Assembly (NCBI GenBank): GCA_951406725.2
Contig: OX597833.1
Coordinates: 37,572,001-37,636,000 of the forward strand
DNA length: 64,000 nucleotides
DNA from: Octopus vulgaris
Taxonomy: Eukaryota
Reading direction: 5' to 3'
The notes under the pieces were generated by a model. The model did not search any database, was not told the DNA's origin, and saw only the letters and a program-made list of their open reading frames with translations. This document shows positions 37,179-64,000 of the stretch, piece by piece (positions within the stretch are counted from its first letter, which is position 1; each line of letters opens with the position of its first letter). A program made the translations under genes and the position numbers.

Positions 37179-37216
<38 letters not shown>

Positions 37217-37895: not shown

Positions 37896-37931
<36 letters not shown>

Positions 37932-38583: not shown

Positions 38584-38658
38584 TTCTATAGAAAGTATTG
38601 AATAATCTTTCAGTTTAATGTTAAGTTGTTTTTATTACAACTCAATATAAAGACAAAC

Positions 38659-38722
<64 letters not shown>

Positions 38723-38866
38723 AAGAGAGGTATTGGTATCCAGAAAACCCAAGGTTGCAAGTAAGGTTATGTAAGTGCTATGGAATGACCATAGTTAAAC
38801 TCTTGGTTCAATAATAATACGAGTGAGGAGCCTAATGCAGGTCTTGTATGAGCATGTGTATATATA

Positions 38867-38899
<33 letters not shown>

Positions 38900-38947
38900 A
38901 AATGCATGCACATGCACACACACATATGTGTGCATATGTATGCATGT

Positions 38948-38995
<48 letters not shown>

Positions 38996-41440: not shown

Positions 41441-41617
41441 AAAAAAAGAATATATATACATATACACATACACATATACATATGTACACACACACACATA
41501 CACACAATCTGTAATAATAAGGTAAAACCAAATGATGAAATTTTGAAAGTATCTGATATCTGTGTTTCCGATGTGCATAATAGGAAAACCTTCAGTTTGT
41601 ACATTTCAAAATATATT

Positions 41618-41650
<33 letters not shown>

Positions 41651-42569
41651 TATGTCCCATGATGACAACGTATTTCGTCATCCCCATGGGACTGGTCTGA
41701 ACTGCGTAACTTCGACGACCAACACTACTGACTGTCAGTCCACTATTTATTATCTTTTCGTTCCACACAGAACCGTAATTTTTTTATTTTTTTCAAAATA
41801 CCGGCAGGTAGTTCTAAGGCTAACATTATTACTGGTAGCAGAACTACACATAGCAACCTTACTTATAAATCCTTCAGATGGACTTATTATTATTTTTTCG
41901 TTCCACACAAAACCCCAATTTTTTTTTTCAAAATGCCCACAGGTAGTACCAAGTCTAACATTATTACTGGTAGCAGTACTACATATAGTGACCTGACTTA
42001 CAAATCCTTTGAACGGACTTATTATTTTTTTGTTCCTATATTATTGTATAAACTTGATATGTCCCAGTGGCAATATTGCCCAAACCCTCGTCACTACTGA
42101 TATGTCCCATGATGATGGATTTCATTGTCTCTATGGGATTGATCTGAACAGCATACCTTTGCCGACCGACACTACTGACTGTGTCAATCCACTACTTATT
42201 CATAGTGAACCAGCCCACATCTCGCCTGGAGGTGTCTGCCACAATATATATATATATTATTTATTTATTTATGCACCCTTTTCAAGCCTAGCCAGGCTCA
42301 TGGGCCCGGTTTCCTGGTTTCTGTGGTATGTGTTCCCCCTAGCTTGATGGGACGCCAGTCCATCACAGCATTACTAAAGAAACAGGAAGAGAGAGTGAGA
42401 GAAAGTTGGGGCAAAAGAGTACAACAGGGGTCACCACCACCCCCTGCCAGAGCCTCGTGGTGCTTTAGGCGTTTTCACTCAATAAACACACACAACGCCC
42501 GGTCTGGGAATCGAAGCCACGATCCTTCGACTGTGAGTCTGCTGCCATAACCGCTGGGTCATTGTGCCT

Positions 42570-42639
<70 letters not shown>

Positions 42640-42645
42640 GTATAT

Positions 42646-43405
42646 ATAAAGAAATATTGATCATAGAACAAACATCAAATTCGAGTCAACAACTTTATAA
42701 TTAAAACACCATGCCTCAAACAGTTAATCACACATAGATATTACCATGGTTCCTAAACATAAAAATATACATATATATAAAAATATAGAAGGTAAAAATA
42801 TATATGCAAATAAAATACAAATATATAGAACAGCCTATCAAAAAAGTAAATATAAATTACTAAAAATTCATAAAAGTTCCAAAGTGTGTCATGCTACCTC
42901 AAAACTGATAAACTAAGATAAATTATCATATCAAATGACTAAAATTATTTTTTAAAAGTTTTTTTTTACTCCCCTCACACAAAAGTATGTCCAAAAAGTT
43001 CAATACTTAAAACCATAGTAGGTTAAAGTCCATGAGCAAAAGGAGTTCCACAAGGTCAATTCAAACACACCTTTTGTGTGAGGGGAGTAAAAAAAAACTT
43101 TTTAAAAATATTTTTAGTCGTTTGATATGATAATTTATTTTATCTTAGTTTATCAGTTTTGTTGTAGCATAACACGCTTTAGAATTTTTATCAATTTTTA
43201 GTTGCTTATATTTACTTTTTTGATAGGCTGTTCTATATATTTGTATTTTATTCACATACCTTCTGTGTTTTTATATATATGTATATTTTTATATGTTTAG
43301 GAACCATGGCAATATTTATATGTGATTAAATGTTTGAGGTATGGTGTTATATATAAAGTCGTTGACTCAAAAATGATGTTTGTTCTATGATCAATGTTTC
43401 TTTAT
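42646..43405. repeat. Inverted repeat, arms about 340 bp, 85-nt spacer
   Basis: 42646-42985 versus 43071-43405, moderately diverged. Confidence 0.92.
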
Positions 43406-43519
43406 CGTTGTCTCATTTACACTAGAGCACTTCTTTTTTGCAGTCCTATAAAGCCTTTTGTTTCCATAAAAGGAGACAAATATTATTTCTTGTCATATAA
43501 ATATATATATATGTGTGGG

Positions 43520-44620
43520 TGGGGTGTATATTAACTGACACCCAAATAGAAATTCTAAGTAAGGGACTGAAGTTTACACCCACACCACAAAGACCAAACT
43601 TCCTTGAACTGAAAAATGACATTGCAAAATTCTGCCGAAAACTCTGGCTGGCTGAACACTCCACCAACAACTCTAATGATGAGGACGAGTCACCAGCCAG
43701 CAACAAAAGCAACTTTTACCCAAATAAAGGGTTAAATAAAGCACTAGACACCTACTGTGAATACATTATGAACTTCCCCTTTTCAAAAATTGAACATAGA
43801 AATACTAAATCAAAGTTTACAAAGCATGAATGGAAGAACCTACAGGACTTACAATAAGATACAGATGCAACTATCAAAGAAGTAAATAAAGGGAGCATTG
43901 TCATTATCATGGACACAAATTACTATAAAGACCTAGCACTCACAATGCTAGAGGACAACAACTACAAAGAATAAAAAATAATGGAAAACCTCACAACTCT
44001 TTTAAAGAAGTATAACAAAGGCTTAACCAGCAAAGAAATTGACTACGTAGGCTATTTCAAATGCAAAACAAGCAACTTTTATGGTTTACCAATATCTAAA
44101 ATTGAGATCAACCATAGCATGCTTGGTATGTGAAACACACAGACTCAACAACTTCTTGGACATCTTCCTAAAACCCTCCCTAAAACATATACAGAGCTAC
44201 GTACAAGATGACCTAGACATGCTAAATCATCTGCCAAAAACGGTAAGTAGACATACAATTTTTACTTCATTCGATGTTGTCAACCTATACACTAACATTC
44301 TCCATGATTATAGAATAACTACAATACAATACTGGTTAGACACTCACCAATCTGAACTTCCAGCATGCATAGAAAAGGAACTTATCATTGATGGGCTCAG
44401 ATTTATACTTGAAAACAACTTTTTTACTTTCAATGGTTCAGATTACTGCTAAACACATCAGGAACAGCAATGGGTATGAAAGTATCCTCTACAAACACCA
44501 ACTTAGTCATGGGATTTCATGAACAAAAAATTTACAACTAATCTTTTCTAATATTTGGTCACACATTCCATACACAACTCAGAAACAGTTAGTAAAAATA
44601 CCTGGATGATTGCTTTATCT
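43520..44620 (+). mobile_element. Penelope-like element ORF (N-terminus plus RT), pseudogenised
   Basis: LSKGLKFTPTP, IKEVNKGSIVIIMD (DKG motif), TSFDVVNLYTNI, LENNFFTFN, GTAMG and KYLDDCFI in order. Confidence 0.9.
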
Positions 44621-44904
44621 TCATCATCATTTAACGTTGATTGTCCATGCTGGTATGGGTTGGACGGTTTGAGTGGGCTGGCATGCTGGAAGGCTGCACC
44701 AGGATCCAGTCTCATTTGGCATAGTTTTTACAGTTGGATGTCCTTCCTAACACCAACCATTCCATGAGTGTAATGAGTGCTTTTACGTGCCACCAGCATG
44801 GGTGTCATTTGCATGACACCAATATCTGCTATGACAGCAATTTTGCTCAGCTTGATGGTCTTCTTCTCAAGCATGACATAATACCAAAGGTCTTGGTCAT
44901 TGCC

Positions 44905-45255
44905 TTCATGAGGCCCAACAGTCAAAGGGAGTGCAGCCACTTGCCTCCATGAGGCCCAACACTTGAAAGGAACTCAGCCACCCCACATCCGTGAGGCCCA
45001 TTCAAAAGGAACTCAGCCACCTCACCTTCATAAGGCCCAACACTCAAAAGGAACTCAACTACTTTTCTTCCATGAGGCCCAGGAGCTCAGCTACTTTGCC
45101 TCCATGAGCCCCAATGCTTGAAAGGAACTCAGCTACCTTGCTTCCATGGGTCCCAACACTCGAAAGGAACTCAGCCACCTCACCTCCATGAGGCCCAACA
45201 CTTGAAAGGAACTCCTTCACCTTGCCTCCATGAGGTACAACATTCAAAAGGAACT
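44905..45255. repeat. Minisatellite of about 41 bp, 8-9 diverged units
   Basis: Unit approximately catgaggcccaacacttgaaaggaactcagccacctcacctc. Confidence 0.9.
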
Positions 45256-46473
45256 ATATATATATATATATATATATAAAGTTAATCCAAACAAGAAAGC
45301 ACAAAAAAACACAACAACGCGAGGATGTGGAACAAATATAGTATTATTGGACGTTCAGGAAAGAAGGAGGGTTTAATGTTTCGAGCAGAGCTCTTCGTCG
45401 GAAACATAGGAGAAGGAAAGATCCAGAGAAGGGAAGACAGAGGGAAAAAAATCGCCAATGGTATGCGCGAGGTCATATACACACACACATACACACACAC
45501 ACACATACATACATACAGAAACTGTCCAAAGCCTAATCTAAGAAGCTCTACTTTAAAATATTACAAAGACAAACTTAACTGTCAATGTTCAACTGGGACT
45601 TCAACTTTCTAACTTCATCACACAGGTATTTCTAATGTGAATGTGAATTTTGAACTTTCAGACTTTACAGTTTTAAGGAACTGAATTTAAATGACACTCA
45701 CCAGAACACCACCACCCTCTGTAACCTTTGTCCTGTTGCCAAACTCTTGACATTTCTTAAGTGTTATTGTCTTGATAATGTCATAACTGAGACACTAAGA
45801 GAAGGTCCTTTCTATTGCTTAGCAATCCATTTATCCTTTATCTTACATACACTCACTCTCTGTACTTCTTTTCTCCTTCCTTTTGTAGAACTATCAGTAA
45901 AATTACATAAACACACACACACACACACACACAAACACACACACTGTGTTTATGTTAGTGTGTGCACATGTGTGTATTTGCGTATGTATAAGTTTATGAG
46001 GTTGTGCATGTGTAAGAATATGTGTAGAATTATCAGATTACGTATATATCTGTTATGTGAAAAGTGTGTGTGTGTGTGTGTGTGAAAGAGAGAGAGAGAC
46101 AGACAGACAGACAGATAGACAGACAGAGGGCTGTAGTTATAAGGTCATCCCTGGTGTTACATTGTTGTAAACATCTAAGTATTTTACTTTTCAGTTGTTA
46201 AGTGTGTGAGCAACTATGAATATGTATCAGTCGCTGTGTGTGTATATGTGTGAGAATGTGTGTGTGTATGTGTTATCTATCAATGTCTCTCAGCTAACTT
46301 TATTCATGAGTGAAAGAAGTAATAATAATCTATGGCAGATAAATGACAAGAGTGTCATTGCTCTTAGTAGACCACCCCTGAAGGTTCCACTCAGCCTAAA
46401 ACTGCACCTCATTATAAAAGAGTTGCTGTTTTTAAAACACACCACTTCTCTCATTCCAACTACCACCACCACT

Positions 46474-46506
<33 letters not shown>

Positions 46507-47170
46507 TTGTGCAGCTATAGAAATTTGCAGATTCATTCAACCCGTGTTATTATAGAAAACAACTACAAGAATATCAAATATATGTGTATATTTATATACA
46601 TACATATACACATATATTTATCTATGGATAAGAGTGGATGATGTACTTAATTGTATTGACTCATATATCGTTGATATTTATTTATAGAACCTAAAATAAT
46701 GACTTCAAATTTTGGCACAAGACCAGTAATTTCAGGGGAGGAGGCTAGTCAATTACTTCAACCCCTGTGTGCAACTGGTACTTATTTTACCAACCCCGAA
46801 AAGATTAAAGGCAAAGTCGACCTCTGTGGAAAAAATTAATCTGTCATGAGTAACAAGTGAAGTCTAAAATTTCAAAAAGAACACATCATTTGAGATATAG
46901 TGGTAAATACATACATACATATATATCATCATCATCATCATCATCGTTTAACGTCCGTTTTCCATGCTAGCATGGGTTGGACGGTTCAACTGGGGTCTGG
47001 GAAGCCAGAAGGCTGCGCCAGGCCCAATCTGATCTGGCAGTGTTTCTACAGCTGGATGCCCTTCCTAACGCCAACCACTCTGAGAGTGTAGTGGGTGCTT
47101 TTTATGTGCCATCTGCACAGGTGCCAGACGGAGGCTGGCAAATGGCCACGATCAGATGGTGCTTTTTACG

Positions 47171-47261
<91 letters not shown>

Positions 47262-47319
47262 TACATGACTACATGTATATATACATTTCGCTTAGGCATT
47301 GTGAGACTAATAACTTGGT

Positions 47320-48240
47320 GTAGAACTCAATATACATAAGCTTCCGAATGAAGCATTAGTCGAGTACAAAGTGGTAATATGCAAATGTCTGGCAAACAGT
47401 TTGACCAGGAAGAATAAATACTCTGTGGACAATTTCTTTTGCATTGATGAAATATATCAGCATCGTCTTGACATTGGACTTCATTTGACACGTTTTTGTG
47501 GGTTATGGTGACATTGAATGCTTCCATGGACTTGATTGCTGTGTTGTTTCCAGCTCATAGCCATAGCACCAGCTTTCATCACCAGTGATGTCCTTTGAAA
47601 AAATCTCTGGATCAACTTCCAACTGTTCTTTTAGTTCACAACACGCATTCAGTTGTGACTGCTTTTGATCTTCCATGTGCAAGTGAGGCACCAATTCTGC
47701 TGTAACTCTTTTCATTCGCAATTCCTCGCTCAAAATTCATAGACAGGAGCTCCAGGGCACACCAATTATGTCAACAAGTTCATCAATTGTTTGGCAATGG
47801 TCCTCCCAAATCAGTTTATGAGTTTTTGTTTGGGAGGCCGATGGTCACCCTGAATGAAGTTAGTCTTCAAGCAACAAGTGACAATTCCTAAAGAGTGAAA
47901 ACCACTCATAATCTTGTATTTTGCTTATGGCAGCGTCCTTGTAAGCTGTTTGAGGTTTGACAACTGTTTCAGTTGCTGTTTTCCCTGTCAGAAGACAGAT
48001 TTTCACAGAAGCATGCTGTTCCTTCATTTCAGCCATCGCAAAAATCGACCAGCAGTGGAGAAGCACTACAAAACAAAGATGCATCACATGGCAATATGAC
48101 CCCACACAACAACGCTAGTCAGCAGACTGATACCTCAGGGTTGCATCAAGTGGCTTCTAGTGGTGGAAGCCTGAACTAGGTACAAATGGCTTGTCCCACA
48201 GAGAATATTTTCCACTTACTTTTGAGTACCCCATCCCATA
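47320..48240 (-). mobile_element. mariner transposon fossil
   Basis: EQHASVKIC..GKTATET..YEWFSLF, LVPHL and ITGDESWCYGY motifs. Confidence 0.9.
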
Positions 48241-48675
48241 TATAGTTTAGAAATTCACTTCATAACAAAGTACTTTTTGGTTCAACCCAACTGTGTAGCA
48301 ACATGGTCAAGAATCTTCTATTATATTCCAGATTAACCAATGCATTGTGAGTGAATTTGGATCAATGGAAATTGTGCAGAAGCCTGTTTTATGTATGTGT
48401 GTGTGTGTGTGTGTGTGTATGCATATGTGTATGTATATATTTTTATGTGTATGTATGCATTTGTCATTGTAGTTGTCTCTTACTGTTTGTCAAAGGTAAT
48501 TGCTTACATCTCAATAACTAAGGAGTTCAGCAAAAAGAGTCAGATACAATAAGTATCAGACCTAAAAATAAGTAACAGAATTGATTTGATCAATTAAACA
48601 TTTCAAAGCATTGCCCCAACATGGTATCACAGCTCAATGATTGAAAAACAAGAATGTGTGTGTGCATGTCTGAGA

Positions 48676-48722
<47 letters not shown>

Positions 48723-49684
48723 ACATCATCATCATCATTTAACGTCCACTTTCCATGCTAACATGGGTTGGATGATTTGACTGAGGACTGGCAAACCAGA
48801 TGGCTGCACCAGACTCCAATCTGATCTGGCAGAGTTTCTACAGCTGGATGCCCTTCCTAATGCCAACCACTCCAAGAGTGTAGTTGGAGCTTTTATGTGC
48901 TACCAGCACGGGGGGCCAGTAAGGCGATGCTGGTAATGGTCACACTCGAATGGGAGATAGGATAAGTGAGGAAAAAAACAGGAGGGGGAGATATAAACAA
49001 AACAAAAAATGGAACAAGAATGTAGTTAGACGATACAAAAAAGGACAGGAAAAAAACAAGGTCAGGTCAATCAGAGCAACCAAATTACTTTCATCATCAT
49101 CATCATTACTATCACCATCATCATTGTCATCACAACATTTAATGTCCATTTTCTGTGCCAATGTGGGTTGGACAGTTTGATAGGATCACAAGCCAGAGGG
49201 CTGTGCCAAGCTCTGCTGTCTGCATTAGCATGGTCTCTATGGCTGGGTGTCCTTCCTAACACCAACCACTTTACAGAGTGTACTGAGTGTTTTTTACGTG
49301 GCACAAACACTTACAAGGTCACCAAGTAACTTGCAAGAGAAAGATTCCTCAACTGAGAAGGAGAATGATATTGATGGAGGTGGTTTTGTGCCAGTTGACA
49401 ACCAGGTGAAGTACAATAGAGGGATAGAAACACACACACAAACACGCAGATAGATAGATAGATAGATAGATAGAGACAGACAGACAGACAGATATAGACA
49501 TATACATATATACACACATACATACACACATATATACTCACACATATACATAGAGACACACACATATACATACACATGTGTACAGACTGCCTCAAACAGT
49601 TCTGATTAATCCATGCTAGCACAGAAAATAATGATTTTGGTGGTTATGATAAAATGTAAATGTGTGTGAGTGTGTGTGTGTGTA

Positions 49685-49751
<67 letters not shown>

Positions 49752-49862
49752 ATGTGTGAATGTATGCATGCACAGGCATACAGTCCATTCATATATAGAC
49801 ACATCACTTTAAACATTTCATCTCTCTGCAAATGTTAGAAATCTCTTCCTCACAACAGATAA

Positions 49863-50210
49863 ATGTGAAGGCACATGGCTCAGTGGTTAGAGCGTTGAGC
49901 TTACGATCATGAGGTTGTGAGCTCGAATCCCGGTCCGGGCTACGTGTTGTGTTCTTGAGCAAAGCACTTTATTTTTCACGTTGCTCCAGTTCACTCAGCT
50001 GTAGAAATGAGTTGCGACGTCACTGGTGCCAAGCTGTATCGACCTTTGTCTTTCCCTAGGATAACACTGGTGGCGTGGAGAGGAGAGGCTGGTACGCATG
50101 GGCGACTGCTGGTCTTCCATAAACAACCTTGCCCGGACTTGTGTCTAGGAGGGTAACTTTCTAGGTGCAATCCCATGGTCATTCATGACCGAAGGGGGTC
50201 TTTACCCTTT
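49863..50210 (+). mobile_element. tRNA-derived SINE family 3 with 11-bp TSD
   Basis: TGGCTCAGTGG and GCTCGAATCCC boxes; acaacagataa at 49852 and 50211. Confidence 0.85.
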
Positions 50211-50559
50211 ACAACAGATAACTATTCCACTTTGTGTCTTGTACTTTAATTTTTGCTGATGCAGACCATCACTAGTTTCCACATATCCTATGGTTTTATT
50301 TTGATACTTAGTACCAAAATCTCCAATTTCTGCCATTCTTCTGACTTAGAATGACTTCTTTACTGAACTTTATGCAAAGTACATCCAACATTTTTTTAAT
50401 AACTTCTATTTTTTTCAGTGGTAGAGGAAAGATATTTCAAAGAGACCTGATGTGTATATTATGTAATAATGAATTGTGGGGACCAGACAAATGACCTCAC
50501 AGTGGCATTTTCTTTTATGAGAGTTAGGCCCTGGTATAAAGGAGCTGTCAAAGCCTCAC

Positions 50560-50760
50560 TGTAATAGTGGGGATTCACAGTATCATCTAAAGAGTTAACT
50601 ATGGTAACATTGGTCTTAAAGGTAATCTTAAGATCAAGGGAACTAAGTGTGTGAATTACATCTTCCCTAAGCATATCTAGGGTGTGCCCATTTGTGCTTC
50701 TAGAGATGGTTAAAGCTTCATTTCCATATAGACCAAAATGGACTGACTAGCAATAACCAA
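50560..50760 (-). mobile_element. Penelope-like RT remnant
   Basis: LDLKITFKTNVTIVNSLDDTVN. Confidence 0.45.
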
Positions 50761-51007
50761 CAACTACATAATGTGTATGTGTGTGTGTGTGCGTGTGTGC
50801 ATGTGTGTGTACATGCATGCGTGCGCGTGTGTATATAGGAAGAGTGTGACAAATATACAGACAGAGAGAGATTATTTAGCTATTCAGATATCTAAACAAA
50901 AGATTAACACTTCTAAGAAGTAGTACTTGAGAGATATATTTCAGAGTGGCAGGTGAAATAGGGAGGGTAACATTGAATACAGTGTGTATGGGTGTGTGTG
51001 CATGTGC

Positions 51008-51040
<33 letters not shown>

Positions 51041-51041
51041 T

Positions 51042-51095
<54 letters not shown>

Positions 51096-51242
51096 GCAAT
51101 TTAAAATATCTGGGAATCAAATATATATTTCTTCAATAGTTTACATGAGATTCGATAAAAACTAGATATGTAACCCTTGATCTTATATTACAAATTTTGT
51201 AAATCATTGCCTCATATCTGATGTCAGCATGAGTATGCTTGT

Positions 51243-51277
<35 letters not shown>

Positions 51278-52289
51278 AATAATAGAGGGAGTGGAGGTGG
51301 GGTGATGGTAGTCGTGAAAGTCATACAGAGGTGTTTAACCCAAGGTACATATTCATGCAGCAGAGATCAAATGTATGTCCCTATCACACCTTTTATTGAA
51401 GCATAGTACACATAGGACAATAATATTGATTTCAAACACCACAAAGCATTTTTTCTGATGCTCAAACGATTCTGCAGCCTTTGTGGTTTGTGATTTAGGC
51501 ACAAGACTAGAAATTTTAAAGGAGATGAGGTTAGTAAGTTACATTGACTCCAAATTTCTAATACTTTAGTCTGTCAGCCCTGAAAGGATAAAAAGCAATG
51601 TTCACTAGAACAAGATTTGAACTCAGAATGTAAAGAGGTAGAAGAAATACCATAAGGGCTGACCAAAACCATGTGAGTGGATTTGGTAGATGGAAAAAGC
51701 CCATTGTATATATATTTCTTTACTGCCCACAAGGGGCTAAACATAGAGGGGACAAACAAGGACAGACAAAGGGAGTAAGTCGATTATATCGACCCCAGTG
51801 CGAAACTGGTACTTTTTTTATCGACCCTGAAAGGATGAAAGGTAAAGTCAACCTCGGCGGAATTTGATCTCAGAACGTAACGACAGACGAAATACCTCTA
51901 AGCATTTCGCCCGGCGCGCTAACGTTTCTGCCGGCTCGCCGCCTATTGTATATATATTGTGTGTGTGTGTGTGTGTGTGTGTGCACGTGTGTATGTGTGT
52001 GTGTATGCATTTGTGTGTCTGTGTTTGTCCCCACCCCTCATCATTATCATTAATAAGGCAGTGAGCTTGCAGAAACATTAGCACATTGGGTAAAACGCTT
52101 AGCAGCATTTTGTCCATCCTTACATTCTGAATTCAAATTTCACTGAGGTTGACTTTGCCTTTCATCCTTTCGAGGTCAATGAAATACATACCAGTTACAC
52201 ACTGGCATTGCTGTAATCAACTAGCCCCCTCCCCCAAAATTTCAGTCCTTGTGCCTTTAGTAGAAAGGATTTTGAACACTAAAGTTAAT

Positions 52290-52682
52290 TGGCTGTGTGG
52301 TAAGTAGCTTGCTAACCAACCACATGGTTCCGGGTTCAGTCCCACTGCGTGGCATCTTGGGCAAGTGTCTTCTGCTATAGCCACGGGCCGACCAATGCCT
52401 TGTGAGTGGATTTGGTAGATGGAAACTGAAAGAAGCCTGTCGTATATATGTATGTATATATATATATATATGTATGTGTGTGTTTGTGTGTCTGTGTTTG
52501 TCCCCCTAGCATTGCTTGACAACTGATGCTGGTGTGTTTACGTCCCCGTCACTTGGTTCGGCAAAAGACACCGATAGAATAAGTACTGGGCTTACAAAGA
52601 ATAAGTCCCGGGGTCGATTTGCTCGACTAAAGGCGGTGCTCCAGCATGGCCGCAGTCAAATGACTGAAACAAGTAAAAGAGT
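52290..52682 (+). mobile_element. SINE family 1 copy
   Basis: Consensus match. Confidence 0.9.
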
Positions 52683-52751
52683 AATTGACTCATCCCCTTC
52701 CCAAAAATTGCTGCCCTTGTGGCAAAATTTGAAACCATTATTATTATCATA

Positions 52752-52797
<46 letters not shown>

Positions 52798-54283
52798 GGC
52801 AGTAAGCTAGCAGAAGCATTAGTACATTGGACGAACTGCTTAGCAGCATTTCTTCTGTTTCTTTACATTCTGAGTTCAAATGCCACCAAAGTTGGCTTTA
52901 GGTTGATAAAATATAAAATATAAGTTCCAATTGCTGGCCTTGTGCCAAAATCTGAACCATCATTATTATTATTAATGCAGCAAAATGGCAAAACTGTTAG
53001 ATCATTTGGAAAAACTGCTTTGTAGTATTTCGTCTGGCTCCTTACATTCTGAGTTCAAATCCTGCTGGGGTGAACTATACCTTTCATCGTTTAGATAAAA
53101 TAAAGCACCGATCAAATGCTAGGGCTGATGTAATCAACTAGCTCCCTCCCAAAAAATTTCAGGCCTTGTGTCTATAGTGGAAATAATGATTATTATTATT
53201 ACTTAACAGCATTTTGTCTGGCTCTTCAAATTCTGCCAAGGTTGACTTTGCCTTTCTTCCTTTCAGGGTTGATAAAATAAGTGCAAGTTGAGCACTTGGT
53301 GGGGGGGGGGGTTTGATGTAATCAACTTACTCTAACCCCCACCTAAAATTGCTAGCCTTGAACCAAAATTTGAAACATCATTATTAGGGTGGTGAGCCAG
53401 AAGAATTGATAGAAAATCAGAATAAATGTTTTATGGTATTGTTCTGATTCCTTATATTCCAATTTCAAATCTTGCTATAGTCAACTTTGTCTTCATCCTT
53501 TCAGAATTGATAAAATAAAGTATCAGTCACCAGTCAAGTATGGGCGTCAATGATATTGAGTAAACCCATCCCGTCAAAACTGCTGCCTTTGTACCTAAAT
53601 CAGAAACCAGCAGCAAGCTGGCAGAATTGTTAGTACACCACACAAAATGCTTAGTGGGACTGACCCTTAACCGTTTCCAAGTAAGGCAATATTTCTCCTT
53701 GACTAGACATGTTTTCATGGAAAATTGGAAATGAAGGGCACCATACAACTATCACACAATTTTACAAGGAGACAAAATTACACACTCACATGCACACACA
53801 TGCACAAATACCATGATGATATTTTGGCTCATTGATTGATGAGGAAAGCTCAGCTGTGAATATTCTATGTATTGTGTCTTTGTCTATTTTCCCCGTCTGT
53901 TAAGTTTTCATCTAGCTTCCTATTTGCTCTGCTTTCATCTAACTTTTTCTCCTTGTTGTGTTCTGTCTGTTCAACCCTTGATATGTGCGGCAAGAAGCTT
54001 GCTTCCCAACCGCATGGTCCTGGGTTCAGTCCCACTGTATGATACCTTGGGTAAGTGTCTTCAACTATAGCCTCGGGCCAACCAAAACCATGTGCATGGA
54101 TTTGGTTAAAGGAAACTGAAAGAAACCTGTTGTATATGTGTGTGTGTGTGTGTGTGTGCTTGTTCCCCACCACTGTTTGACAACCGATACTAAAGTATTG
54201 GGGTCAATTCATTCAACTAAAAATTCTTCAAGGCGATGCCCCAACATGGCCACAGTCTGACTGGAACAAGTAAAAGAGTAAAA

Positions 54284-54326
<43 letters not shown>

Positions 54327-54350
54327 AAATTAGAGAATCGAATAGATAAA

Positions 54351-54445
54351 ATCCAGGCTACATATGTTTCATAGCTAGCAGAACCTCAGGAGTAGTAATT
54401 ATCCAAACAAGGGGTAATCCACTAGCTACTCATTGGGCCAAAGAT
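54351..54445 (-). ncRNA. Decayed minimal type I hammerhead motif
   Basis: Minus strand reads ggc-CCAATGA-gtagctag...ctagctat-GAAA-catat-GTA-gcc; core G5 appears mutated. Confidence 0.55.
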
Positions 54446-54707
54446 AGCTTAATCAAAAGAAGTTAGCACATTGGGTAAAACGCTACATGTTAACTTACAA
54501 AGATAGCAAACCCTGCTGCTAACCATAAGCTATAAGACATTTTTTTCAGCTTATCAAACTTCAATTAAGGAAAAATTTACAACCTTCTACGTCAATAAAG
54601 CACTATAGTTCCTGAAAGTTGTTTTTTAGACGTTCTACAGACTGCTAGAAGTGTACTGCCTTCTTACACCTTGATCCTTGGATCTTACCTTTACACATAC
54701 TCCCACT

Positions 54708-54752
<45 letters not shown>

Positions 54753-55570
54753 TCCCACTCACACACACGCAAACACACACATACACATAAACACACACAA
54801 TGCGCATATACATATGATGGATCTCTTTCAGTTTCTGTTGATCAGATCCTCTCACAAGACTTTGGTTATAGTAGAAGATGCTTGGCCAATGTGCCATACA
54901 ATGGGACAGAATCCAAGAAAGTTTCTCAACCACAGAGCCACTCCTGGATAAACACTACCATTCTTTCCCCCCCACCCTATAGACTCTGCTGACTCATAAA
55001 ATGAGGCACATCCACATCCATTCTTTGCCTTCATTTTCAAACAGTATGACATGCCCAACTTGTGCCTTTTATTTAATAAAGGAATGGGAGAGAAAATTTC
55101 ATATTAAATGATTATGCAAAAATGCTCTCCTCATTAGAAAACAATAGTTAAGTTAATGTCAACATACTTAAAACAAGGAGCATCTAAAAGGTAATTAGAA
55201 GTATTTAAGTGGTGAGGAAATGTAGATAACATCCTACAGTAATTTATCCTTTAAACAATTCCAATTCTCCATGTCACTTGTATATATCCTCATAAATCTA
55301 CTTCTTAATTCTCCTTTCACTATTGTGGCAAGTACAATGAAATTTATGATGACCTCACTGATGGGGCCATTATAAGACCAATACTTGCTGACATAATTAC
55401 AGAAATATGTGTAATTATGTGGTAAGAAGCTTGCTTCCCAACCACATGGTTCCGAGTTCAGTTCCACTGTGTGGCACCTTGGGCAAGTGTCTTCTACTAT
55501 AGCCTCAGGCCAACCGAAATCTTGTGAGTGGATTTGGTAGATGGAAACTGAAAGAAGCCTGTCGTATATT

Positions 55571-56586
55571 TCTATACATATAAAACTGAGAATGTGTGTC
55601 TGTCTGTCTGTGTGTTTCCCTAAAACTTGAGAACTACACAACCAATTTCATGCAAATTTTACACATGCTTTACTTAGGGTCCGGGGAGTGTCATTGGTAA
55701 TTTTTAACTTTTTGCCTAGGGCAAGCCCACAGCAATATCATATCTTCTCCACTATTTCAGTATTACGTGTTAAAAGTGAAACAAAAACATTTCTCTATTT
55801 TAAGTCAGATACTTTCACTTTAACAATAAAAATAATAATAAAAATTGAATTATATGTAGTAAGTAATAATTAAAATCAAACTAAAGTATAATATAATCGT
55901 AACATAACAAAAGTAAAAATAGAAATTGGTATAAAATTGCATCAATGACTTGAACTTGAATAAATGATTTCACATGAATGGGAATAAATTAAAAATAAAA
56001 TTAGCGTGCAGAAATGGAATAGTCCAGATGGATAATAAAAAATTAAATTAAAGAAAAGACTATTGTCTATAAAGTATACAATGTAGAGAAAAAAGATTTG
56101 AACACCTGGAGGAAAGCACCATCGAAAAGTGTCTTGATGTAACTATGAAAGATATCTAACCAGAGGCGGTAAATTCGCCACAATAGAAGCAAGATTCGAG
56201 TCAAAGGAGTGTGCAAGGGAGTACTTGACTCGAACTTGCAAAGTGGAAATATTTTATTTTTACCTTTATATCTGGGACGTAGGACGTGCCGGATAAAAAC
56301 TAAAAATCCCCCCCCCCAAGTTGAGGTAGGCTGGATTGTAGCCACACTTCTATACAAGAGGGAGGACAAGATACAATTGATCGAAATTGCAAGAGACGAG
56401 CTTACAATTCCAGTGTGTTATATATTTTGAGTATTGTTATCACTATCGATATCAAGATATAACTTTGTATTTTGTATTTTATGTGTAGATGTATATATAT
56501 AGATGTACATGTAATATGTACACATATATATACACATATATACATGCACTAGCACTATGACCCGGCAACGACGGGTCATAATGCTA

Positions 56587-56587
<1 letters not shown>
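55571..56587 (+). mobile_element. Non-autonomous Helitron
   Basis: 5' TCTATACATATAAAA; 3' hairpin atgacccg/cgggtcat followed by CTAG|T. Confidence 0.75.
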
Positions 56588-56623
<36 letters not shown>

Positions 56624-56921
56624 AAAAATGGTAAATAATTTTCCTGTGGTTTATCATGTAACCAACAATTATTTACCGGTAAATTTCGGTATGTAAATAC
56701 GACAAATTAATTGTCAAGACCTTTGTAAGGTTCAGTATATAGTAAAGAAAAAATAAGAAGGTTAACAGCAGGCTGTTTCACCTCATACCGAAGGAATTAG
56801 AAATGGCAGTCAAAGACCGTTTTTCCAATTTCTATAAGTGGAGAATCCAAAAACGAAGGCCCTTACGGCTCACATACACAAAACCGGAGTGGCAAATATA
56901 CGAATTCAATCACTTACCGTT

Positions 56922-56988
56922 AATAGCGGACATATGTTTCTGGATCGCAAACGTGGAAAACAGTTTGAATTCCGTCATCGGCGCTATA
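56922..56988 (-). ncRNA. Minimal type I hammerhead ribozyme, copy 1
   Basis: Reverse complement of 57844-57910. Confidence 0.75.
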
Positions 56989-57469
56989 TTCGATAGTTTT
57001 ACTAAATGCCACTAGCCCTCACTTCTGACCCAGCGACATCAGATAGTGGGGGAAAGGTGCAGATGTTAAAACTAAGTGGCGACTGGGAACGTAAATTTTC
57101 CCTCCAAAATTCTGCCATGCGCGCTTTCTGGGTAATCGTAATGGAATGAGGAATCCACATGGTAATTCAATAAAAATGGTAAATAATTTTCCTGTGGTTT
57201 ATCATGTAACCAACAATTATTTACCGGTAAATTTCGGTATGTAAATACGACAAATTAATTGTCAAGACCTTTGTAAGGTTCAGTATATAGTAAAGAAAAA
57301 ATAAGAAGGTTAACAGCAGGCTGTTTCACCTCATACCGAAGGAATTAGAAATGGCAGTCAAAGACCGTTTTTCCAATTTCTATAAGTGGAGAATCCAAAA
57401 ACGAAGGCCCTTACGGCTCACATACACAAAACCGGAGTGGCAAATATACGAATTCAATCACTTACCGTT

Positions 57470-57536
57470 AATAGCGGACATATGTTTCTGAATCGCAAAC
57501 TTGGAAAACAGTTTGAATTCCGTCATCGGCGCTATA
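57470..57536 (-). ncRNA. Minimal type I hammerhead ribozyme, copy 2 (two substitutions in stem-loop II)
   Basis: Same core; tctgaatc and aacttgg variants. Confidence 0.7.
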
Positions 57537-57843
57537 TTCGATAGTTTTACTAAATGCCACTAGCCCTCACTTCTGACCCAGCGACATCAGATAGTGGGGG
57601 GAAAGGTGCAGATGTTAAAACTAAGTGGCGACTGGGAACGTAAATTATTTACCATTTTTATTGAATTACCATGTGGATTCCTCATTCCATTACGATTACC
57701 CAGAAAGCGCGCATGGCAGAATTTTGGAGGGAAAATTTACGTTCCCAGTCGCCACTTAGTTTTAACATCTGCACCTTTCCCCCCACTATCTGATGTCGCT
57801 GGGTCAGAAGTGAGGGCTAGTGGCATTTAGTAAAACTATCGAA

Positions 57844-57910
57844 TATAGCGCCGATGACGGAATTCAAACTGTTTTCCACGTTTGCGATCCAGAAACATAT
57901 GTCCGCTATT
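57844..57910 (+). ncRNA. Minimal type I hammerhead ribozyme, copy 3
   Basis: Stem I atagcg/cgctat; CCGATGA 57851-57857; stem II gga..caaac/gtttg..tcc; GAAA 57892; palindromic ACATATGT; GTC 57901-57903. Confidence 0.75.
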
Positions 57911-58391
57911 AACGGTAAGTGATTGAATTCGTATATTTGCCACTCCGGTTTTGTGTATGTGAGCCGTAAGGGCCTTCGTTTTTGGATTCTCCACTTATAG
58001 AAATTGGAAAAACGGTCTTTGACTGCCATTTCTAATTCCTTCGGTATGAGGTGAAACAGCCTGCTGTTAACCTTCTTATTTTTTCTTTACTATATACTGA
58101 ACCTTACAAAGGTCTTGACAATTAATTTGTCGTATTTACATACCGAAATTTACTGGTAAATAATTGTTGGTTACATGATAAACCACAGGAAAATTATTTA
58201 CCATTTTTATTGAATTACCATGTGGATTCCTCATTCCATTACGATTACCCAGAAAGCGCGCATGGCAGAATTTTGGAGGGAAAATTTACGTTCCCAGTCG
58301 CCACTTAGTTTTAACATCTGCACCTTTCCCCCACTATCTGATGTCGCTGGGTCAGAAGTGAGGGCTAGTGGCATTTAGTAAAACTATCGAA

Positions 58392-58458
58392 TATAGCGCC
58401 GATGACGGAATTCAAACTGTTTTCCACGTTTGCGATCCAGAAACATATGTCCGCTATT
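58392..58458 (+). ncRNA. Minimal type I hammerhead ribozyme, copy 4
   Basis: Identical to copy 3, shifted by 548. Confidence 0.75.
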
Positions 58459-58636
58459 AACGGTAAGTGATTGAATTCGTATATTTGCCACTCCGGTTTT
58501 GTGTATGTGAGCCGTAAGGGCCTTCGTTTTTGGATTCTCCACTTATAGAAATTGGAAAAACGGTCTTTGACTGCCATTTCTAATTCCTTCGGTATGAGGT
58601 GAAACAGCCTGCTGTTAACCTTCTTATTTTTTTCTT

Positions 58637-58687
<51 letters not shown>

Positions 58688-59148
58688 CATATATATATAC
58701 TATTAAAAGTCAAATTGAATCTTGCTTGCTTGCAATGTTACTCAGCCAAACTGGTCCATAATGGGAAAATACTATGATTCAAGTTTACCCTGAAATTTTA
58801 ATATAAACGGAATGAAACAAGTTTCACATAAATCAGTAAAGTAGTTTTTGAGATATTAGAGATTTGCAGGGTATAAATACCCAAAACAGAAAGAATATTT
58901 GGTCCAAATATGGTCAGTTTAAATGCCAAAGGCTTAAATGTTTAAACATTAAAATAGAAGATTGTTGAGTTGTTTCATTGTTCTAGTTAGTTTATGGTTC
59001 ATATGTAGCTGTTATCATTGTTGTTTAGCCCCAGTTAACCCAAACCAACAATCAAAGGCTTTCCAGTCATGACCATTCCATCTTTTTCAAGGTGTGTTAG
59101 GCTACATTGTTTAACTCTTTAGCATTCAGATTACTCTCTTATATGCAA

Positions 59149-59784
59149 CTAGCAGTATCGCCCGGCGTTGCTCAGGTTTGTAAGGGAAATAACTATATAA
59201 GCATTTTTAGAGAGTTATAGCCAAAAAATAGCAAAAAATGCATTAAAAATGGAAAAAATATGATGGTAAATTTTTTAAAAATCGTTGACTCATCGTAGAC
59301 ATTTTTAGAGAGTTACTTCCCTTATATAATAGCGAAAAAATGCATTAAAATGGAAAAAAAACGATGGTAAATTTTTTTTTAAATCGTAGACTCATGTAGA
59401 CGCTTTCTTAGCCATTTCTGTTTTGGTGTCTTCAAGCCATGAAGTCGTTGTTCTAAAAGAACACTGGTCTCCTTGACAACGCATTACGACGTTGATTTCC
59501 TTACACTCCCTTCCCCACAGGTGCAGGTGTGAGCGTGGACGCCAACTCTGCCGCCATCGACACACGAAAAATTATGCATTAAAATGGAATAAAAAATGAT
59601 GTTAAATTATTTTTTAAATCGTAGACTCATCGTAGACGCGCGCTAATATTCAGACGGGCTCGATATGAATCACGACTATAAGCTACCCGAATTTGGTTAA
59701 ACTGCACCGCAAAATGTGGGAGTATTTAGGAATCTAAATCGAAGGGGACAGACACTCACACAACTACAGTTTTATATATATAGA
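59149..59784 (-). mobile_element. Non-autonomous Helitron core, copy A
   Basis: Minus strand: 5' TCTATATATATAAAA, 3' GC-rich hairpin then CTAG|T. Confidence 0.8.
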
Positions 59785-59884
59785 TATACATAGCGCAGTA
59801 GTGGTGAGATGTGACAGCAAAGAAAAGCATACATTCACTCTCTGCATGCAATTAGACTCGGAAAGTTCGTGAGGAACCCATTGA

Positions 59885-60170
59885 CCCAATTTGCTGACTT
59901 TTCCGATAGCACACAGGTCTCAATGAATGGTTGAATGACCAAATCCAAGCTTCTCTGCTAGTTCCTCAACAGTTACGATGATATTTTGTTCCACCAGGGT
60001 TTTCAGGATGTCCTTGTCGAGTTCTACAGATCTTTCAGGATGAGGCTCGTCTTCTAGGCTGTAGTTTATGGCTCGGGATTTCTGGAACCACCATTGACAC
60101 TGCCTTACGCTTATTGTCCAATCCCCATATACTGCATTAATATTTCTTGTACTTTGCACACATTTATATT
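59885..60170 (-). mobile_element. mariner transposase N-terminal fragment
   Basis: NINAVYGDWTISVRQCQWWFQK...SLEDEPHPERS...TVEELAEKLGFGHSTIH. Confidence 0.85.
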
Positions 60171-61733
60171 CTGTTATTCTTTTATATGTTTCAGCCTTGA
60201 GGTTGTGGCCATGCTGGATCATGTGTGTGTGTGTGTGTGTGTCTATCTGTCTGTCTGTCTGTATGTATATATGTATATGTATGTGTGTGAACAATAATAT
60301 TTTCAACAGATGTGTTGCAAATGTATCTGATTGTTCTCAAGCTTCAATACTGTGTGTGTGTGTATGTGTGTGTGTATGTATGTATATATATGTATGTATG
60401 TATGTATATGTATGTATGTATGTATGTGTGTATGTATGTATGTGTGTGTGTGTATGTGTGTGTGTATGTGTGTGTGTATGTATGTATGTATGTATGAGTG
60501 TATGTTTACTTTATTACTAACACAAGCCACTACGGTTATTTAATGTAAAGTCTTCGTCAAATCACTCTCACTCTCGCTATTTACTCTCTTCCAAGAACAT
60601 TTTCACTCACTCTTAGCTCTTAGCTTCCCATACATTTTACTCATGTATCTATCAGCGTCATAGACAGAATACTTTCAGTTTAGTCTTCCTCAAATCACTC
60701 TGTCGCTATTTACTTTCATTTTATTTGTTGCACACTGTGTGTGTGCATTTGCGTGTGGTGTAAACCAGACTAAGAAAAGCATTTGACACACACACCAGAA
60801 TGTGAGTTTTCTGTAAATTTTGCTTAATTGGAGTTTAAATTTTAAAAACTGGACCTGGCATGACGCGATGCATTGTACTCTTAAAAATGCTAGGTAAATT
60901 GTAATTGAAGAAATCCTATATTGTAGATTTCTATAACTCCCAAAGGGAGGCAGATAAAATCTGCCTTTTATAATAAGAGATATTTATTCACATTGTTTTG
61001 AATTAATCATGCATTATCTCATAGCATTGGGATTTTGATGGTGCTCTGTGCCAATACCAAGTAAAAAGCACTCATGCCAGTGCCCTGTAAAAAGCACCTG
61101 TGTTGGCACCATGTAATAGCATCCAACACACTCTGGAAAGTGGTTGATATTAAGAAGAGTATCCAGCTGTAGAGACCAAGTCAAATCAGACTGGAACCTA
61201 TTGCAGATTTCCAGCTTGCCAGCTCTGGTCAAACTGTCCAACTCATACCAGCATGGAAAACAGACGTTGAAGGATGATGATGATGATGATGATATGATTG
61301 CTTATTTTTAGAATGGGTAGGTGTGACGGGCCAGATTTGGTCAGCTTGAACATAGAACAGGAAGAATATATGGCCAGTTTAAATGTTAAAGTATAAATGT
61401 GTCCTAGTTTCATTATAAGACCATGGGATGCAATTTGAAGGAAATTTGGTTTAGGAGTAACCTACAGGTCCAGCTCTTTGAGTGTAAGCCTCCATCAATC
61501 AGAAGGCTTAATATTTGACCAATTCTTACTCTACTGAACTTCTAGAATCACCTCCACACACCCATTTTCTCTGAATATCATTCATATCCATTTCAACACT
61601 CTGTAAGGGCCTTCAAGGATCACAGGCACCGATGCTCTTTTTCTCAGTACCAGAGAAGTTTACAGTGTGCATTTAGTTTTAGTGAGTATTGTTTTGAAGA
61701 GTATAGGTTTGTGATGAAAGACTTAGCATGTAG

Positions 61734-62148
61734 GTGTAGGAGTGGCTGTTTGGTAAGTAGCTTGCTAACCAACCAATGGTTCTGGGTTCAGTCCCACTGT
61801 ATGGCATCTTGGGCAAGTGTCTTCTACTATAGCCCTGGGCCGACCAATGCCTTGTGAGTGGATTTGGTAGACGGAAACTGAAAGAAGCCTGTCGTATATA
61901 TGTATATATATATGTGTGTGTGTGTGTATTTGTGTGTCTGTGTTTGTCCCCCTAGCATTGCTTGACAACCGATGCTGGTGTGTTTACGTCCCTGTCACTT
62001 AGCGGTTCGGCAAAAGAGACTGATAGAATAAGTACTGGGCTTACAAAGAATAAGTCTCGGGGTCGATTTGCTCGAATAAAGGCGCTGCTCCAGCATGGCC
62101 GCAGTCAAATGACTGAAACAAGTAAAAGAGTAGAGAGAGAGAGAGAGT
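61734..62148 (+). mobile_element. SINE family 1 copy
   Basis: Consensus match. Confidence 0.9.
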
Positions 62149-62587
62149 ATGTCACACTGAACAGAAGTCACTCTCCATTGTGTATGTGATTGTATTACAA
62201 GATGTTTTGACAGGTAAATATGGTGTGTGTGTGTGGGGGGATGTGTAAGTATTAAACTGCATTAAATATTTACATTTGCTGAAGAAGGAACAAATAAATA
62301 AGTTGTAAATGTTAAAATGAATGTATACACGTGCACATAAGCTTGTGTGTGTGTGTATGTGTGTGTGTGTGTGTAGGCATATAAGAAATTAAGTGCATGT
62401 ATGTGAATGTATTTATTTATATGCATTTGAATGTCATTGTATGTGTGTGTGTGTGTGTGTGTGCATGTGTCTGTGGTATCTTCTTTGTCTGCATGTGTCA
62501 CTCTGTCCTAATCACTGTGTATGTGTGTTTGTGTGTTCATATGAATATCAGTGTGAGACTATGTGAGTGAATCTGAAAGTGCATATA

Positions 62588-62788
62588 CTCTTTTACTTGT
62601 TTCAGTCATTTGACTGCAGCCATGCTGGAGCACTGCTTTTAGTCGAGCAACTCGACCCCGGGACTTATTCTTTGTAAGCCCAGTACTTTTTCTATCGTTC
62701 TCTTTTGCCGAACCGCTAAGTGACGGGGACGTAAACACACCAGCATCGGTTGTCAAGCAATGCTAGGGGGACAAACACAGACAGACAA

Positions 62789-62821
<33 letters not shown>

Positions 62822-62990
62822 CATATATACGATGGGCTTCTTTCAGTTTCTGTCTACCAAATCCACTCACAAGGCTTTGGTCTGCCCGAGGCTATAGTAG
62901 AAGACACTTGCCCAAGGTGCCACGCAGTGGGACTGAACCCGGAATTATGTGGCTGGTAAGCAAGCTACTTACCACACAGCCACTCCTGCG
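62588..62990 (-). mobile_element. SINE family 1 copy
   Basis: Reverse complement consensus match. Confidence 0.9.
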
Positions 62991-63340
62991 CTGTATGAGT
63001 GTTTACATATTTTGTTTTTTTATATATTTATCCATGAAGTAGTCAAGTTGAAAAGGTGGCCAGCTATGGCTGACTACTGATGGAAGAGAAGTTTGGAGTA
63101 GATAATTATTTCATCACACACACACACACGCATGTGCATGTGAACAAACACAAACGTACATACCACCAGGCTCACTTCTGCATTAAACATGAAGTTTTGT
63201 GAGAACAAACCCTACCATCACCAATCCAGTCAACTTTGTAATTTGTGCTATAACATTGGATGTAAAAGGTCAATGTTAACTTAATGCCAACATTTCAAAC
63301 AAATTAATACTAAGGTTAAAGTTGAAAGTTTATATATATA

Positions 63341-64000
63341 CTAGCAGTATCGCCCGGCGTTGCTCGGGTTTGTAAGGGAAATAACTATATAAGCATTTTT
63401 AGAGAGTTATAGCCAAAAAATAGCAAAAAATGCATTAAAAATGGAAAAAATATGATGGTAAATTTTTTTAAAAATCGTTGACTCATCGTAGACATTTTTA
63501 GAGAGTTACTTCCCTTATATAATAGCGAAAAAATGCATTAAAATGGAAAAAAAACGATGGTAAATTTTTTTTTAAATCGTAGACTCATGTAGACGCTTTC
63601 TTAGCCATTTCTGTTTTGGTGTCTTCAAGCCATGAAGTCGTTCTAAAAGAACGCTGGTCTCCTTGACAATGCATTACGACGTTGATTTCCTTACACTCCC
63701 TTCCCCACAGGTGCAGGTGTGAGCGTGGACGCCAACTCCGCCGCCATCGACACACGAAAAATTATGCATTAAAATGGAATAAAAAATGATGTTAAATTAT
63801 TTTTTAAATCGTAGACTCATCGTAGACGCGCGCTAATACTCAGACGGGCTCGATATGAATCACGACTATAAGCTACCCGAATTTGGTTAAACTGCACCGC
63901 AAAATGTGGGAGTAGTTAGGAATGTAAATCGAAGGGGACAGACACTCACACAACTACAGTTTTATATATATAGATATACATAGCGCAGTAGTGGTGAGAT
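63341..64000 (-). mobile_element. Non-autonomous Helitron, copy B (runs off the window)
   Basis: Near-identical to 59149-59810. Confidence 0.85.

What the first reader, a model, noticed from the sequence alone, without database searches (positions are those of the whole stretch)
56618..58640. Young 2-kb palindrome of a 548-bp hammerhead-ribozyme unit: candidate cephalopod retrozyme
Seen: a CpG-rich 548-bp unit repeated about 1.9 times forward and 1.8 times inverted, copies differing by only a few bases, embedded in (TA)n. Each unit has a complete minimal type I hammerhead (stem I atagcg/cgctat, CCGATGA, stem II, GAAA, palindromic ACATATGT, GTC). Known: PLE pseudo-LTRs and metazoan non-LTR retrozymes carry such minimal hammerheads, and tandem copies release unit-length RNAs that circularise. 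Inference: this is a non-autonomous, PLE-mobilised self-cleaving element. Either strand's transcript holds two ribozymes 548 nt apart, so read-through of the presumed AMPD intron could excise a 548-nt RNA and cut the pre-mRNA.
Basis: partly seen in the sequence, partly recalled or inferred. Interest (0 to 1): 0.9.

Follow-up and report, generated by a model that had tools for sequence, protein, structure and literature searches.

The report
Octopus hammerhead retrozyme with Penelope footprint
This 2-kb palindrome is one insertion of a young, dispersed, protein-free 548-base repeat with a hammerhead-ribozyme motif; its ends follow the same rule as the genome's Penelope-like retrotransposons, which likely copied it into the DNA from both ends of one RNA that was probably a circle.

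Summary
Observation confirmed: two head-to-head arms (1.88 and 1.83 units) of a 548-nt unit in (TA)n, four type I hammerhead motifs. It is one of at least 77 dispersed loci; homologous 588- and 616-nt families keep the hammerhead with changed stems. None of the 77 loci adjoins an ORF of its own. 3' ends fall at two fixed sites (unit 193 and 312; 92 of 118 arms), 5' ends are scattered, and in 21 of 21 informative inverted loci each site is used once (p about 5e-7). A young autonomous Penelope-like element here obeys the same rule (9 of 9). Both arms share one haplotype. Three probable RNA runs hold the unit as a closed loop of one haplotype that is absent from this assembly. Best reading: a non-LTR retrozyme, likely inserted by two-ended Penelope-type priming on one RNA, probably a circle (about 60%). 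Cleavage, circularity and the partner enzyme are untested. New member of a known kind, with unusually clean mechanistic footprints.

The parts
56588..56618 (.). Left (TA)n target flank; junction at 3' end site B (unit 312)
56617..57646 (-). Left arm, 1.88 units, unit position 380 (5' end, centre) to 312 (3' end, site B)
56929..56987 (-). Hammerhead motif, outer left; predicted cut between 56929 and 56928
57477..57535 (-). Hammerhead motif, inner left, two changes in stem II; predicted cut between 57477 and 57476
57642..57646 (.). Inversion junction, 5-nt overlap between the two 5' ends
   Evidence: overlaps of 0-14 nt in most of 36 inverted loci
57642..58645 (+). Right arm, 1.83 units, unit position 288 (5' end) to 193 (3' end, site A, ends in TATATA shared with the target)
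57845..57909 (+). Hammerhead motif, inner right; predicted cut after 57903
57904..58451 (+). One complete cut-to-cut unit, 548 nt, no long reading frame; circular fold z = -3.8
58040..58206 (+). Structured domain kept across the 548/553, 588 and 616 families, holding site A in a loop and site B just behind its last hairpin; predicted binding site of the Penelope protein
58393..58457 (+). Hammerhead motif, outer right; predicted cut after 58451
58640..58699 (.). Right (TA)n target flank
29700..64000 (-). Host AMPD intron (about 42 kb, runs on past the window end)

Best explanation
The palindrome is one insertion of a dispersed, protein-free 548-nt hammerhead-motif repeat (a non-LTR retrozyme) that was likely written into a (TA)n tract by a Penelope-like reverse transcriptase-endonuclease priming from both target strands on one RNA, probably a unit-length circle. 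Shown by sequence: dispersed young copies in (TA)n; two fixed 3' ends 193 and 312 nt behind the predicted cut; scattered 5' ends; inverted arms always joined 5' to 5'; each 3' site used once per inverted locus; one haplotype per locus; the same rule in an autonomous Penelope-like family. Inferred steps: (1) a source locus with two ribozymes is transcribed, cut and ligated to a 548-nt circle; (2) a Penelope protein dimer binds the conserved structured domain, nicks both strands of (TA)n and starts one cDNA at site A and the other at site B, helped by TA microhomology; (3) each enzyme runs round the template for 0.2-4.6 units and falls off; (4) the two cDNA ends are joined by 0-14 nt of microhomology, giving the palindrome. 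This copy is likely silent as a ribozyme source when read through, and would instead give a long double-stranded intron RNA. Odds: Penelope-type two-ended insertion 0.85; circle rather than linear multimer as the usual template 0.6.
For: Family: 947 candidates, 40 scored, many 97-100% identical; 118 exact hits of a 22-nt ribozyme motif, control 0. In 77 loci/118 arms: 3' ends 50 at 184-194 and 42 at 304-315, none within 10 nt of the cut; 38 of 38 two-orientation loci head-to-head; 107 of 116 3' ends run into (TA)n. Of 36 clean inverted loci 21 have both ends at the fixed sites, all 21 one of each (p 5e-7; 0 of 100000 permutations). Autonomous 4433-bp element (784-aa frame, RVT_1 plus GIY-YIG, over 100 copies 99-100% alike) ends at +64 or +98 behind its own hammerhead, one of each in 9 of 9 resolved inverted inserts out of 11 examined. 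Divergence 0.54% within arms, 0.59% between arms (22 loci), 4.2% between loci; opposite arms same haplotype 18 of 27 against 399 of 5379 for unrelated arms; a motif at unit 416-428 is private to all four copies here. 5' ends do not pile up at the cut (7 of 113, 4.1 expected, p 0.12); 37 of 118 arms cross two or more cut sites. Runs X4 and X13 give one looped contig of 579 = 548+31 nt, X4 without any flank; X2 shows the same joint. Hammerhead core kept with different stem I in the 588 and 616 families; 7 of 33 pairs of the 3' domain change on both sides (4 sequences only). Literature: both-strand nicking and extension, two internal start sites and a predicted dimer for a purified PLE protein (PMC11167929); tail often at one end only (PMC8557442); circle-templated model proposed (PMC7229834, PMC4209133).
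Against: No cleavage, ligation or strand data. The runs are only guessed to be RNA, are contigs, and a looped contig also arises from an uncut head-to-tail transcript. Signs of multi-unit templates or local amplification: an extra C at unit 428 in the inner unit of both arms here but not the outer ones; old and new state of site 480 side by side in L006 and L011; period-2 and period-4 variant patterns in long 616-family arrays; 9 of 27 arm pairs differ at 1-2 haplotype sites. A mild 5'-end cluster at unit 61-80 (13 of 113, p 0.04) could be a transcription start. One 588-family locus (L151, duplicated in L169) has the same site on both arms. No homology between the units and two young autonomous families, so the partner is unidentified. 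The ribozyme is predicted weak (U4C lowers activity in vitro, PMC3088659); in PMC11167929 uncut RNA was the main substrate; 8 of 9 frog retrozyme dimers did not cleave (bioRxiv 2026.07.22.740005).
Confidence: 0.7

Rival explanations
1. Same Penelope-type insertion, but the template is a linear, uncut multi-unit transcript from a few homogeneous master arrays; the hammerhead cuts rarely or only with protein help, and arrays are renewed by unequal crossing-over.
For: Phase-matched extra C in both inner units here, mosaic site 480 in two loci; periodic variants in 7- and 9-unit arrays of the 616 family; weak predicted ribozyme; uncut RNA was the main substrate in vitro (PMC11167929).
Against: Eleven haplotype combinations among young full units, each homogeneous within its locus (1880 concordant against 31 discordant locus-sites), would each need a master array; the longest young array seen is 3.14 units (the search lists only part of the family); variants found in only some units of a locus are not repeated in the same phase across loci except a few likely recurrent changes; run X4 has neither flank nor bubble.
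Confidence: 0.22
2. The units are leftover pseudo-LTRs of an autonomous Penelope-like element, 5'-truncated at insertion and amplified locally into tandems; they do not move on their own.
For: Proposed route for vertebrate retrozymes (bioRxiv 2026.07.22.740005); only 2 of many PLE families were compared (about 28000 candidate RT hits).
Against: No ORF joined to the unit in 77 loci; the tandem junction is seamless unit-to-unit in dispersed, inverted insertions with shared haplotype; no homology to two young PLE families; three homologous unit families behave alike.
Confidence: 0.05
3. The palindrome is a fold-back product, either an assembly artefact or a cDNA that snapped back and copied itself.
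For: Near-perfect 899-bp inverted repeat; the centre junction was not seen in any of four runs laid; one 588-family locus with equal ends may be such a case.
Against: Each arm holds sequence the other lacks (unit 194-312 of the last unit; 288-379 of the first), the arms differ at several bases, and the ends obey the one-of-each rule seen in 21 of 21 loci.
Confidence: 0.03

Closest known systems
Metazoan non-LTR retrozymes (coral, mussel, axolotl; PMC7229834)
   Same: Type I hammerhead in every unit of short head-to-tail repeats, GC under 45-50%, no ORF, no LTR, self-paired circle predicted, RNA sequence not matching database copies (also noted for the mussel).
   Different: Unit 548-616 nt against about 170-400; ribozyme lacks the usual G10.1-C11.1 pair and has C4; half the loci are inverted two-arm insertions in (TA)n with fixed 3' ends, features that paper does not describe ('inverted' and 'microsatellite' 0 occurrences); cephalopods not mentioned.
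Vertebrate non-LTR retrozymes as PLE derivatives (bioRxiv 10.64898/2026.07.22.740005)
   Same: Co-occurrence with EN+ PLEs; unit length inside their 51-972 bp range; few units per locus.
   Different: Their link is homology to pseudo-LTRs and co-occurrence, with local amplification as the route to tandems; here no homologous PLE was found, and the link is the insertion footprint.
EN+ Penelope-like elements (Neptune, Poseidon, Naiad; PMC8557442, PMC11167929)
   Same: 5' truncation, partial tandems, inverted copy joined at the 5' end, microsatellite targets, two internal start sites giving a tail at one end.
   Different: No protein; tail about 120 nt instead of 30-40; 3' ends lie 193 and 312 nt behind the cut against 64 and 98 in the autonomous family here.
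Non-autonomous Chlamys elements such as MRC1 (PMC8557442)
   Same: Non-autonomous, multicopy head-to-tail insertions made by a PLE.
   Different: Those resemble their autonomous partner at the 3' end and their clade lacks canonical hammerheads.

Membership tests
non-LTR retrozyme | Type I hammerhead motif in each tandem unit | tested here: met
   4 of 4 units crossing the site; conserved with changed stems in homologous families; Rfam negative
non-LTR retrozyme | Short dispersed tandem repeats, low GC | tested here: met
   548 nt, GC 38.9%, 77 loci; longer than 150-450 bp of PMC7229834, inside 51-972 bp of the 2026 preprint
non-LTR retrozyme | No protein, no LTR | tested here: met
   Frequent stops in all six frames; no element ORF at 77 loci; PBS and PPT not searched
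non-LTR retrozyme | Highly self-paired circle | tested here: met
   Prediction only: -140.5 kcal/mol, 60% paired, z -3.8 against 60 shuffles
non-LTR retrozyme | Expressed as unit-length circular RNA | tested here: inconclusive
   Looped 579-nt contigs in runs guessed to be RNA; an uncut multimer gives the same
non-LTR retrozyme | Self-cleavage in vitro | not testable with these tools
   Needs transcription assays
non-LTR retrozyme | Target duplication longer than 4 bp when present | not testable with these tools
   Target is (TA)n, duplications cannot be read
non-autonomous Penelope-like element | 5' truncation, partial tandems, inverted copy at the 5' end | tested here: met
   38 of 38 head-to-head
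non-autonomous Penelope-like element | [quoted passage not shown] | tested here: met
   21 of 21; tail about 120 nt, not 30-40
non-autonomous Penelope-like element | Microsatellite target bias | tested here: met
   107 of 116 3' ends
non-autonomous Penelope-like element | Sequence likeness to the pseudo-LTR of an autonomous partner | tested here: inconclusive
   None beyond short AT-rich matches to two young families; other families not compared

The most novel reading that the evidence does not exclude
The 548-nt RNA is a viroid-like circle kept at the RNA level in octopuses: the same haplotype, two changes away from every genomic unit examined, is the dominant looped contig in three studies yet is missing from this assembly and from the DNA run laid, and the genomic palindromes are its Penelope-written footprints.
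Probability: 0.06. Interest if true: 0.92.

Novelty: new member of a known kind. Interest (0 to 1): 0.55.

Why it matters
How animal retrozymes enter the genome, whether hammerheads in Penelope-type elements serve to make a circular template, and why these elements leave inverted repeats with a tail at one end are open questions; the papers read propose models or show co-occurrence. This genome holds three young retrozyme families and two young autonomous Penelope-like families with one target and one end rule, plus a dominant looped RNA-type sequence. The one-site-per-arm rule (21 of 21; 9 of 9) points to one RNA engaged by two enzymes and makes the mechanism directly testable in vitro. Such insertions also seed 0.1-1 kb perfect hairpins in introns of an animal known for heavy A-to-I editing (recalled).

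Tried and rejected
Rfam: no hammerhead match. snRNA-type promoter borrowed from U2: only 10-14 nt AT-rich matches to six U2 upstream regions, rejected. Autonomous parent: none at 77 loci; two young PLE families show no homology. Source locus of the expressed haplotype: one genome-wide hit for the change at unit 61, a 0.65-unit fragment of another haplotype; 0 of 162 copies in the 77 loci carry it. Source-to-offspring bottleneck test gave two candidates on mismatched backgrounds, uninformative. The centre junction of this locus was not covered by any contig listed: no evidence either way. No ribozyme motif on the antisense strand of the unit. Earlier findings of the scan: nothing. Literature searches for a cephalopod retrozyme and for retrozyme insertion footprints listed none; one search listed 20 of 60 and 15 of 62 papers, subscription papers are not covered, and preprint supplements were closed, so an Octopus entry in a supplement or in Repbase/Dfam cannot be excluded. 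Editing as the source of the RNA differences: one is C to G, not a known editing type (recalled).

Full report
What is there. The window lies on contig C20 of a 2.8-Gb assembly in 227 contigs; size, about 30 large contigs and the repeat landscape fit an octopus (my inference from recall, no call names it). Between two (TA)n tracts sit two arms of a 548-nt unit joined 5' to 5': left 56617-57646 (minus strand, unit 380 to 312, 1.88 units) and right 57642-58645 (plus, 288 to 193, 1.83 units), unit position 1 being the base behind the predicted ribozyme cut. Four type I hammerhead motifs are found by my descriptor, 0 of 2000 shuffles hit; Rfam finds none. The motif has a 6-bp stem I, core CCGAUGA, a long interrupted stem II opened by a C-A mismatch, and a self-complementary stem III/loop suited to dimer folding (PMC4209133, passages read). 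Alone it folds no better than shuffles, so it is probably a weak ribozyme. The element is in a 42-kb intron of a minus-strand AMPD gene.

The family. A genome search gave 947 candidates (40 scored) and an exact 22-mer 118 places, 100 listed. I took 86 locus records; five were duplicates of the same locus, two looked like segmental copies, one was cut by a gap and one held only 29 bp, leaving 77 loci and 118 arms of 80 bp or more. None is joined to an ORF of its own; ORFs nearby belong to other elements. Two homologous families were found through neighbours: a 616-nt unit (1532 candidates, 67% alike) and a 588-nt unit (2010 candidates, about 61% over 230 nt), both in (TA)n, both with a hammerhead at the same place and different stem I sequences, both with two 3' ends at matching places. 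A structured domain round the two ends is kept, 7 of 33 pairs changing on both sides (four sequences, two of them close, structure derived from the same alignment, so modest evidence).

The footprint. 3' ends: 50 of 118 at 184-194 (site A), 42 at 304-315 (site B), none near the cut; 107 of 116 run into (TA)n. 5' ends are scattered, 7 of 113 near the cut against 4.1 expected, with a mild cluster at 61-80. All 38 loci with both orientations are head-to-head. After dropping five arms (two under 85% identity, two rearranged pieces, one internal duplicate), 36 two-arm inverted loci remain: 21 have both ends at A or B, and all 21 have one of each; 15 have at least one other end. The window copy is such an A+B case. 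In the related families the listings show 6 A+B and 1 B+B (588) and 5 A+B (616). A hyper-young autonomous Penelope-like element (4433-bp unit, RT plus GIY-YIG with a Cx4Cx2C motif as in Neptune/Nematis per PMC8557442) ends 64 or 98 nt behind its hammerhead, one of each in 9 of 9 resolved inverted inserts, 2 more unresolved. A second young family (781 aa) also ends in (TA)n. Neither is homologous to the units. This matches a purified PLE protein that nicks and extends both strands from two internal sites and is modelled as a dimer (PMC11167929, parts 1-2 of 4 read) and the tail at one end only (PMC8557442, passages read).

One template. Units of a locus share a haplotype (1880 concordant against 31 discordant); opposite arms are as alike as units within an arm (0.59% against 0.54%) and 22 locus-private changes occur in two or more copies of a locus, 14 of them in both arms. 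With 37 arms crossing two or more cut sites, no long young arrays seen and many haplotypes, a monomer circle copied round more than once is the simplest source, as proposed in PMC7229834 (parts 2-4 of 6 and passages read) and PMC4209133. Against: phase-matched extra C in both inner units here, mosaic site 480 in L006 and L011, periodic variants in long 616 arrays. A mix of monomer and multimer templates is likely.

Expression. Runs X4 and X13 each give one 579-nt contig that loops from the unit's end to its start and bridges the cut site; X2 has the same joint with one dominant haplotype (depth about 85 against 3-5) and one loose end into (TA)n at site A; the DNA run X1 breaks into 505 pieces. 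These three runs are only guessed to be RNA, come from three studies and show no strand. Their haplotype is the commonest young genomic one plus two changes (unit 61 and 74), seen together in none of 162 copies, nor genome-wide, nor in the 80% of X1 read. The likeliest cause is a source locus polymorphic among animals or missing from the assembly; sameness across studies argues against error-prone RNA replication, and no antisense ribozyme motif exists. The window copy is not this source.

The host gene. Any read-through makes the antisense arm first; 63-65 of 65 ribozyme bases are predicted to pair with it. Cutting of AMPD pre-mRNA is therefore unlikely though not excluded kinetically; a 900-bp duplex open to ADAR or Dicer is the expected product (inference). 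Transcription from a promoter inside an arm would avoid this; none was located.

Verdict. A real, young non-LTR retrozyme that works like a non-autonomous Penelope-like element. The kind is known (PMC7229834; bioRxiv 2026.07.22.740005, parts 1-4 of 5 read, supplements closed); no cephalopod case or retrozyme insertion footprint was listed in my searches. PMC3088659 was seen as passages only. Interest 0.55, for the testable mechanism rather than for this locus.

Noticed in passing
G000:C9:10671000-10680900 (L176) and L087-L116: Hyper-young autonomous Penelope-like family, 4433-bp unit, 784-aa stop-free frame, over 100 copies 99-100% alike, variant hammerhead core, ends at +64 and +98, inserts in (TA)n.
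   Followed up: yes
L199-L210: Second young Penelope-like family (781-aa frame) with a degenerate hammerhead-like motif and a tail of about 37 nt, also ending in (TA)n.
   Followed up: partly
L146, L147 (616-nt family); L159 (588-nt family): Two more abundant homologous retrozyme families; the 616 unit has an AT-rich repeat expansion inside stem II; arrays of 7-9 units show period-2 and period-4 variant patterns.
   Followed up: partly
unit positions 61 and 74 (window 57964, 57977): Dominant RNA-type haplotype in three studies is absent from the assembly.
   Followed up: partly
window 27192-27271; L060 4096-4397; L031, L044, L055, L075, L005, L006, L019: Further hammerhead-like motifs of unrelated repeat families near (TA)n tracts, one as an inverted pair.
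   Followed up: no
window 29695-64000 and G000:C20:37875865-37901141: Two near-identical AMPD gene copies about 235 kb apart; one intron is 0.75 kb in one copy and about 42 kb in the other, with both ends still matching: a large recent insertion or an assembly issue.
   Followed up: partly
window 56548-56590: Short GC-rich hairpin ending in CTAGT just left of the element, like a Helitron end (label recalled); related repeats at 59148 onward.
   Followed up: no
L066 (G000:C13:44507760-44508910): 565-nt unit variant with an 18-nt duplication starting at the predicted cut site in both full junctions, a possible ligation or template-jump scar.
   Followed up: no
L143 (G000:C12:25698878-25701896): A 0.65-unit fragment joined directly to the 5' end of an unrelated inverted repeat element, a chimeric insertion.
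   Followed up: no
unit 61-80 (window 57964-57983): Mild cluster of 5' ends (13 of 113, p 0.04): pause site or transcription start.
   Followed up: partly
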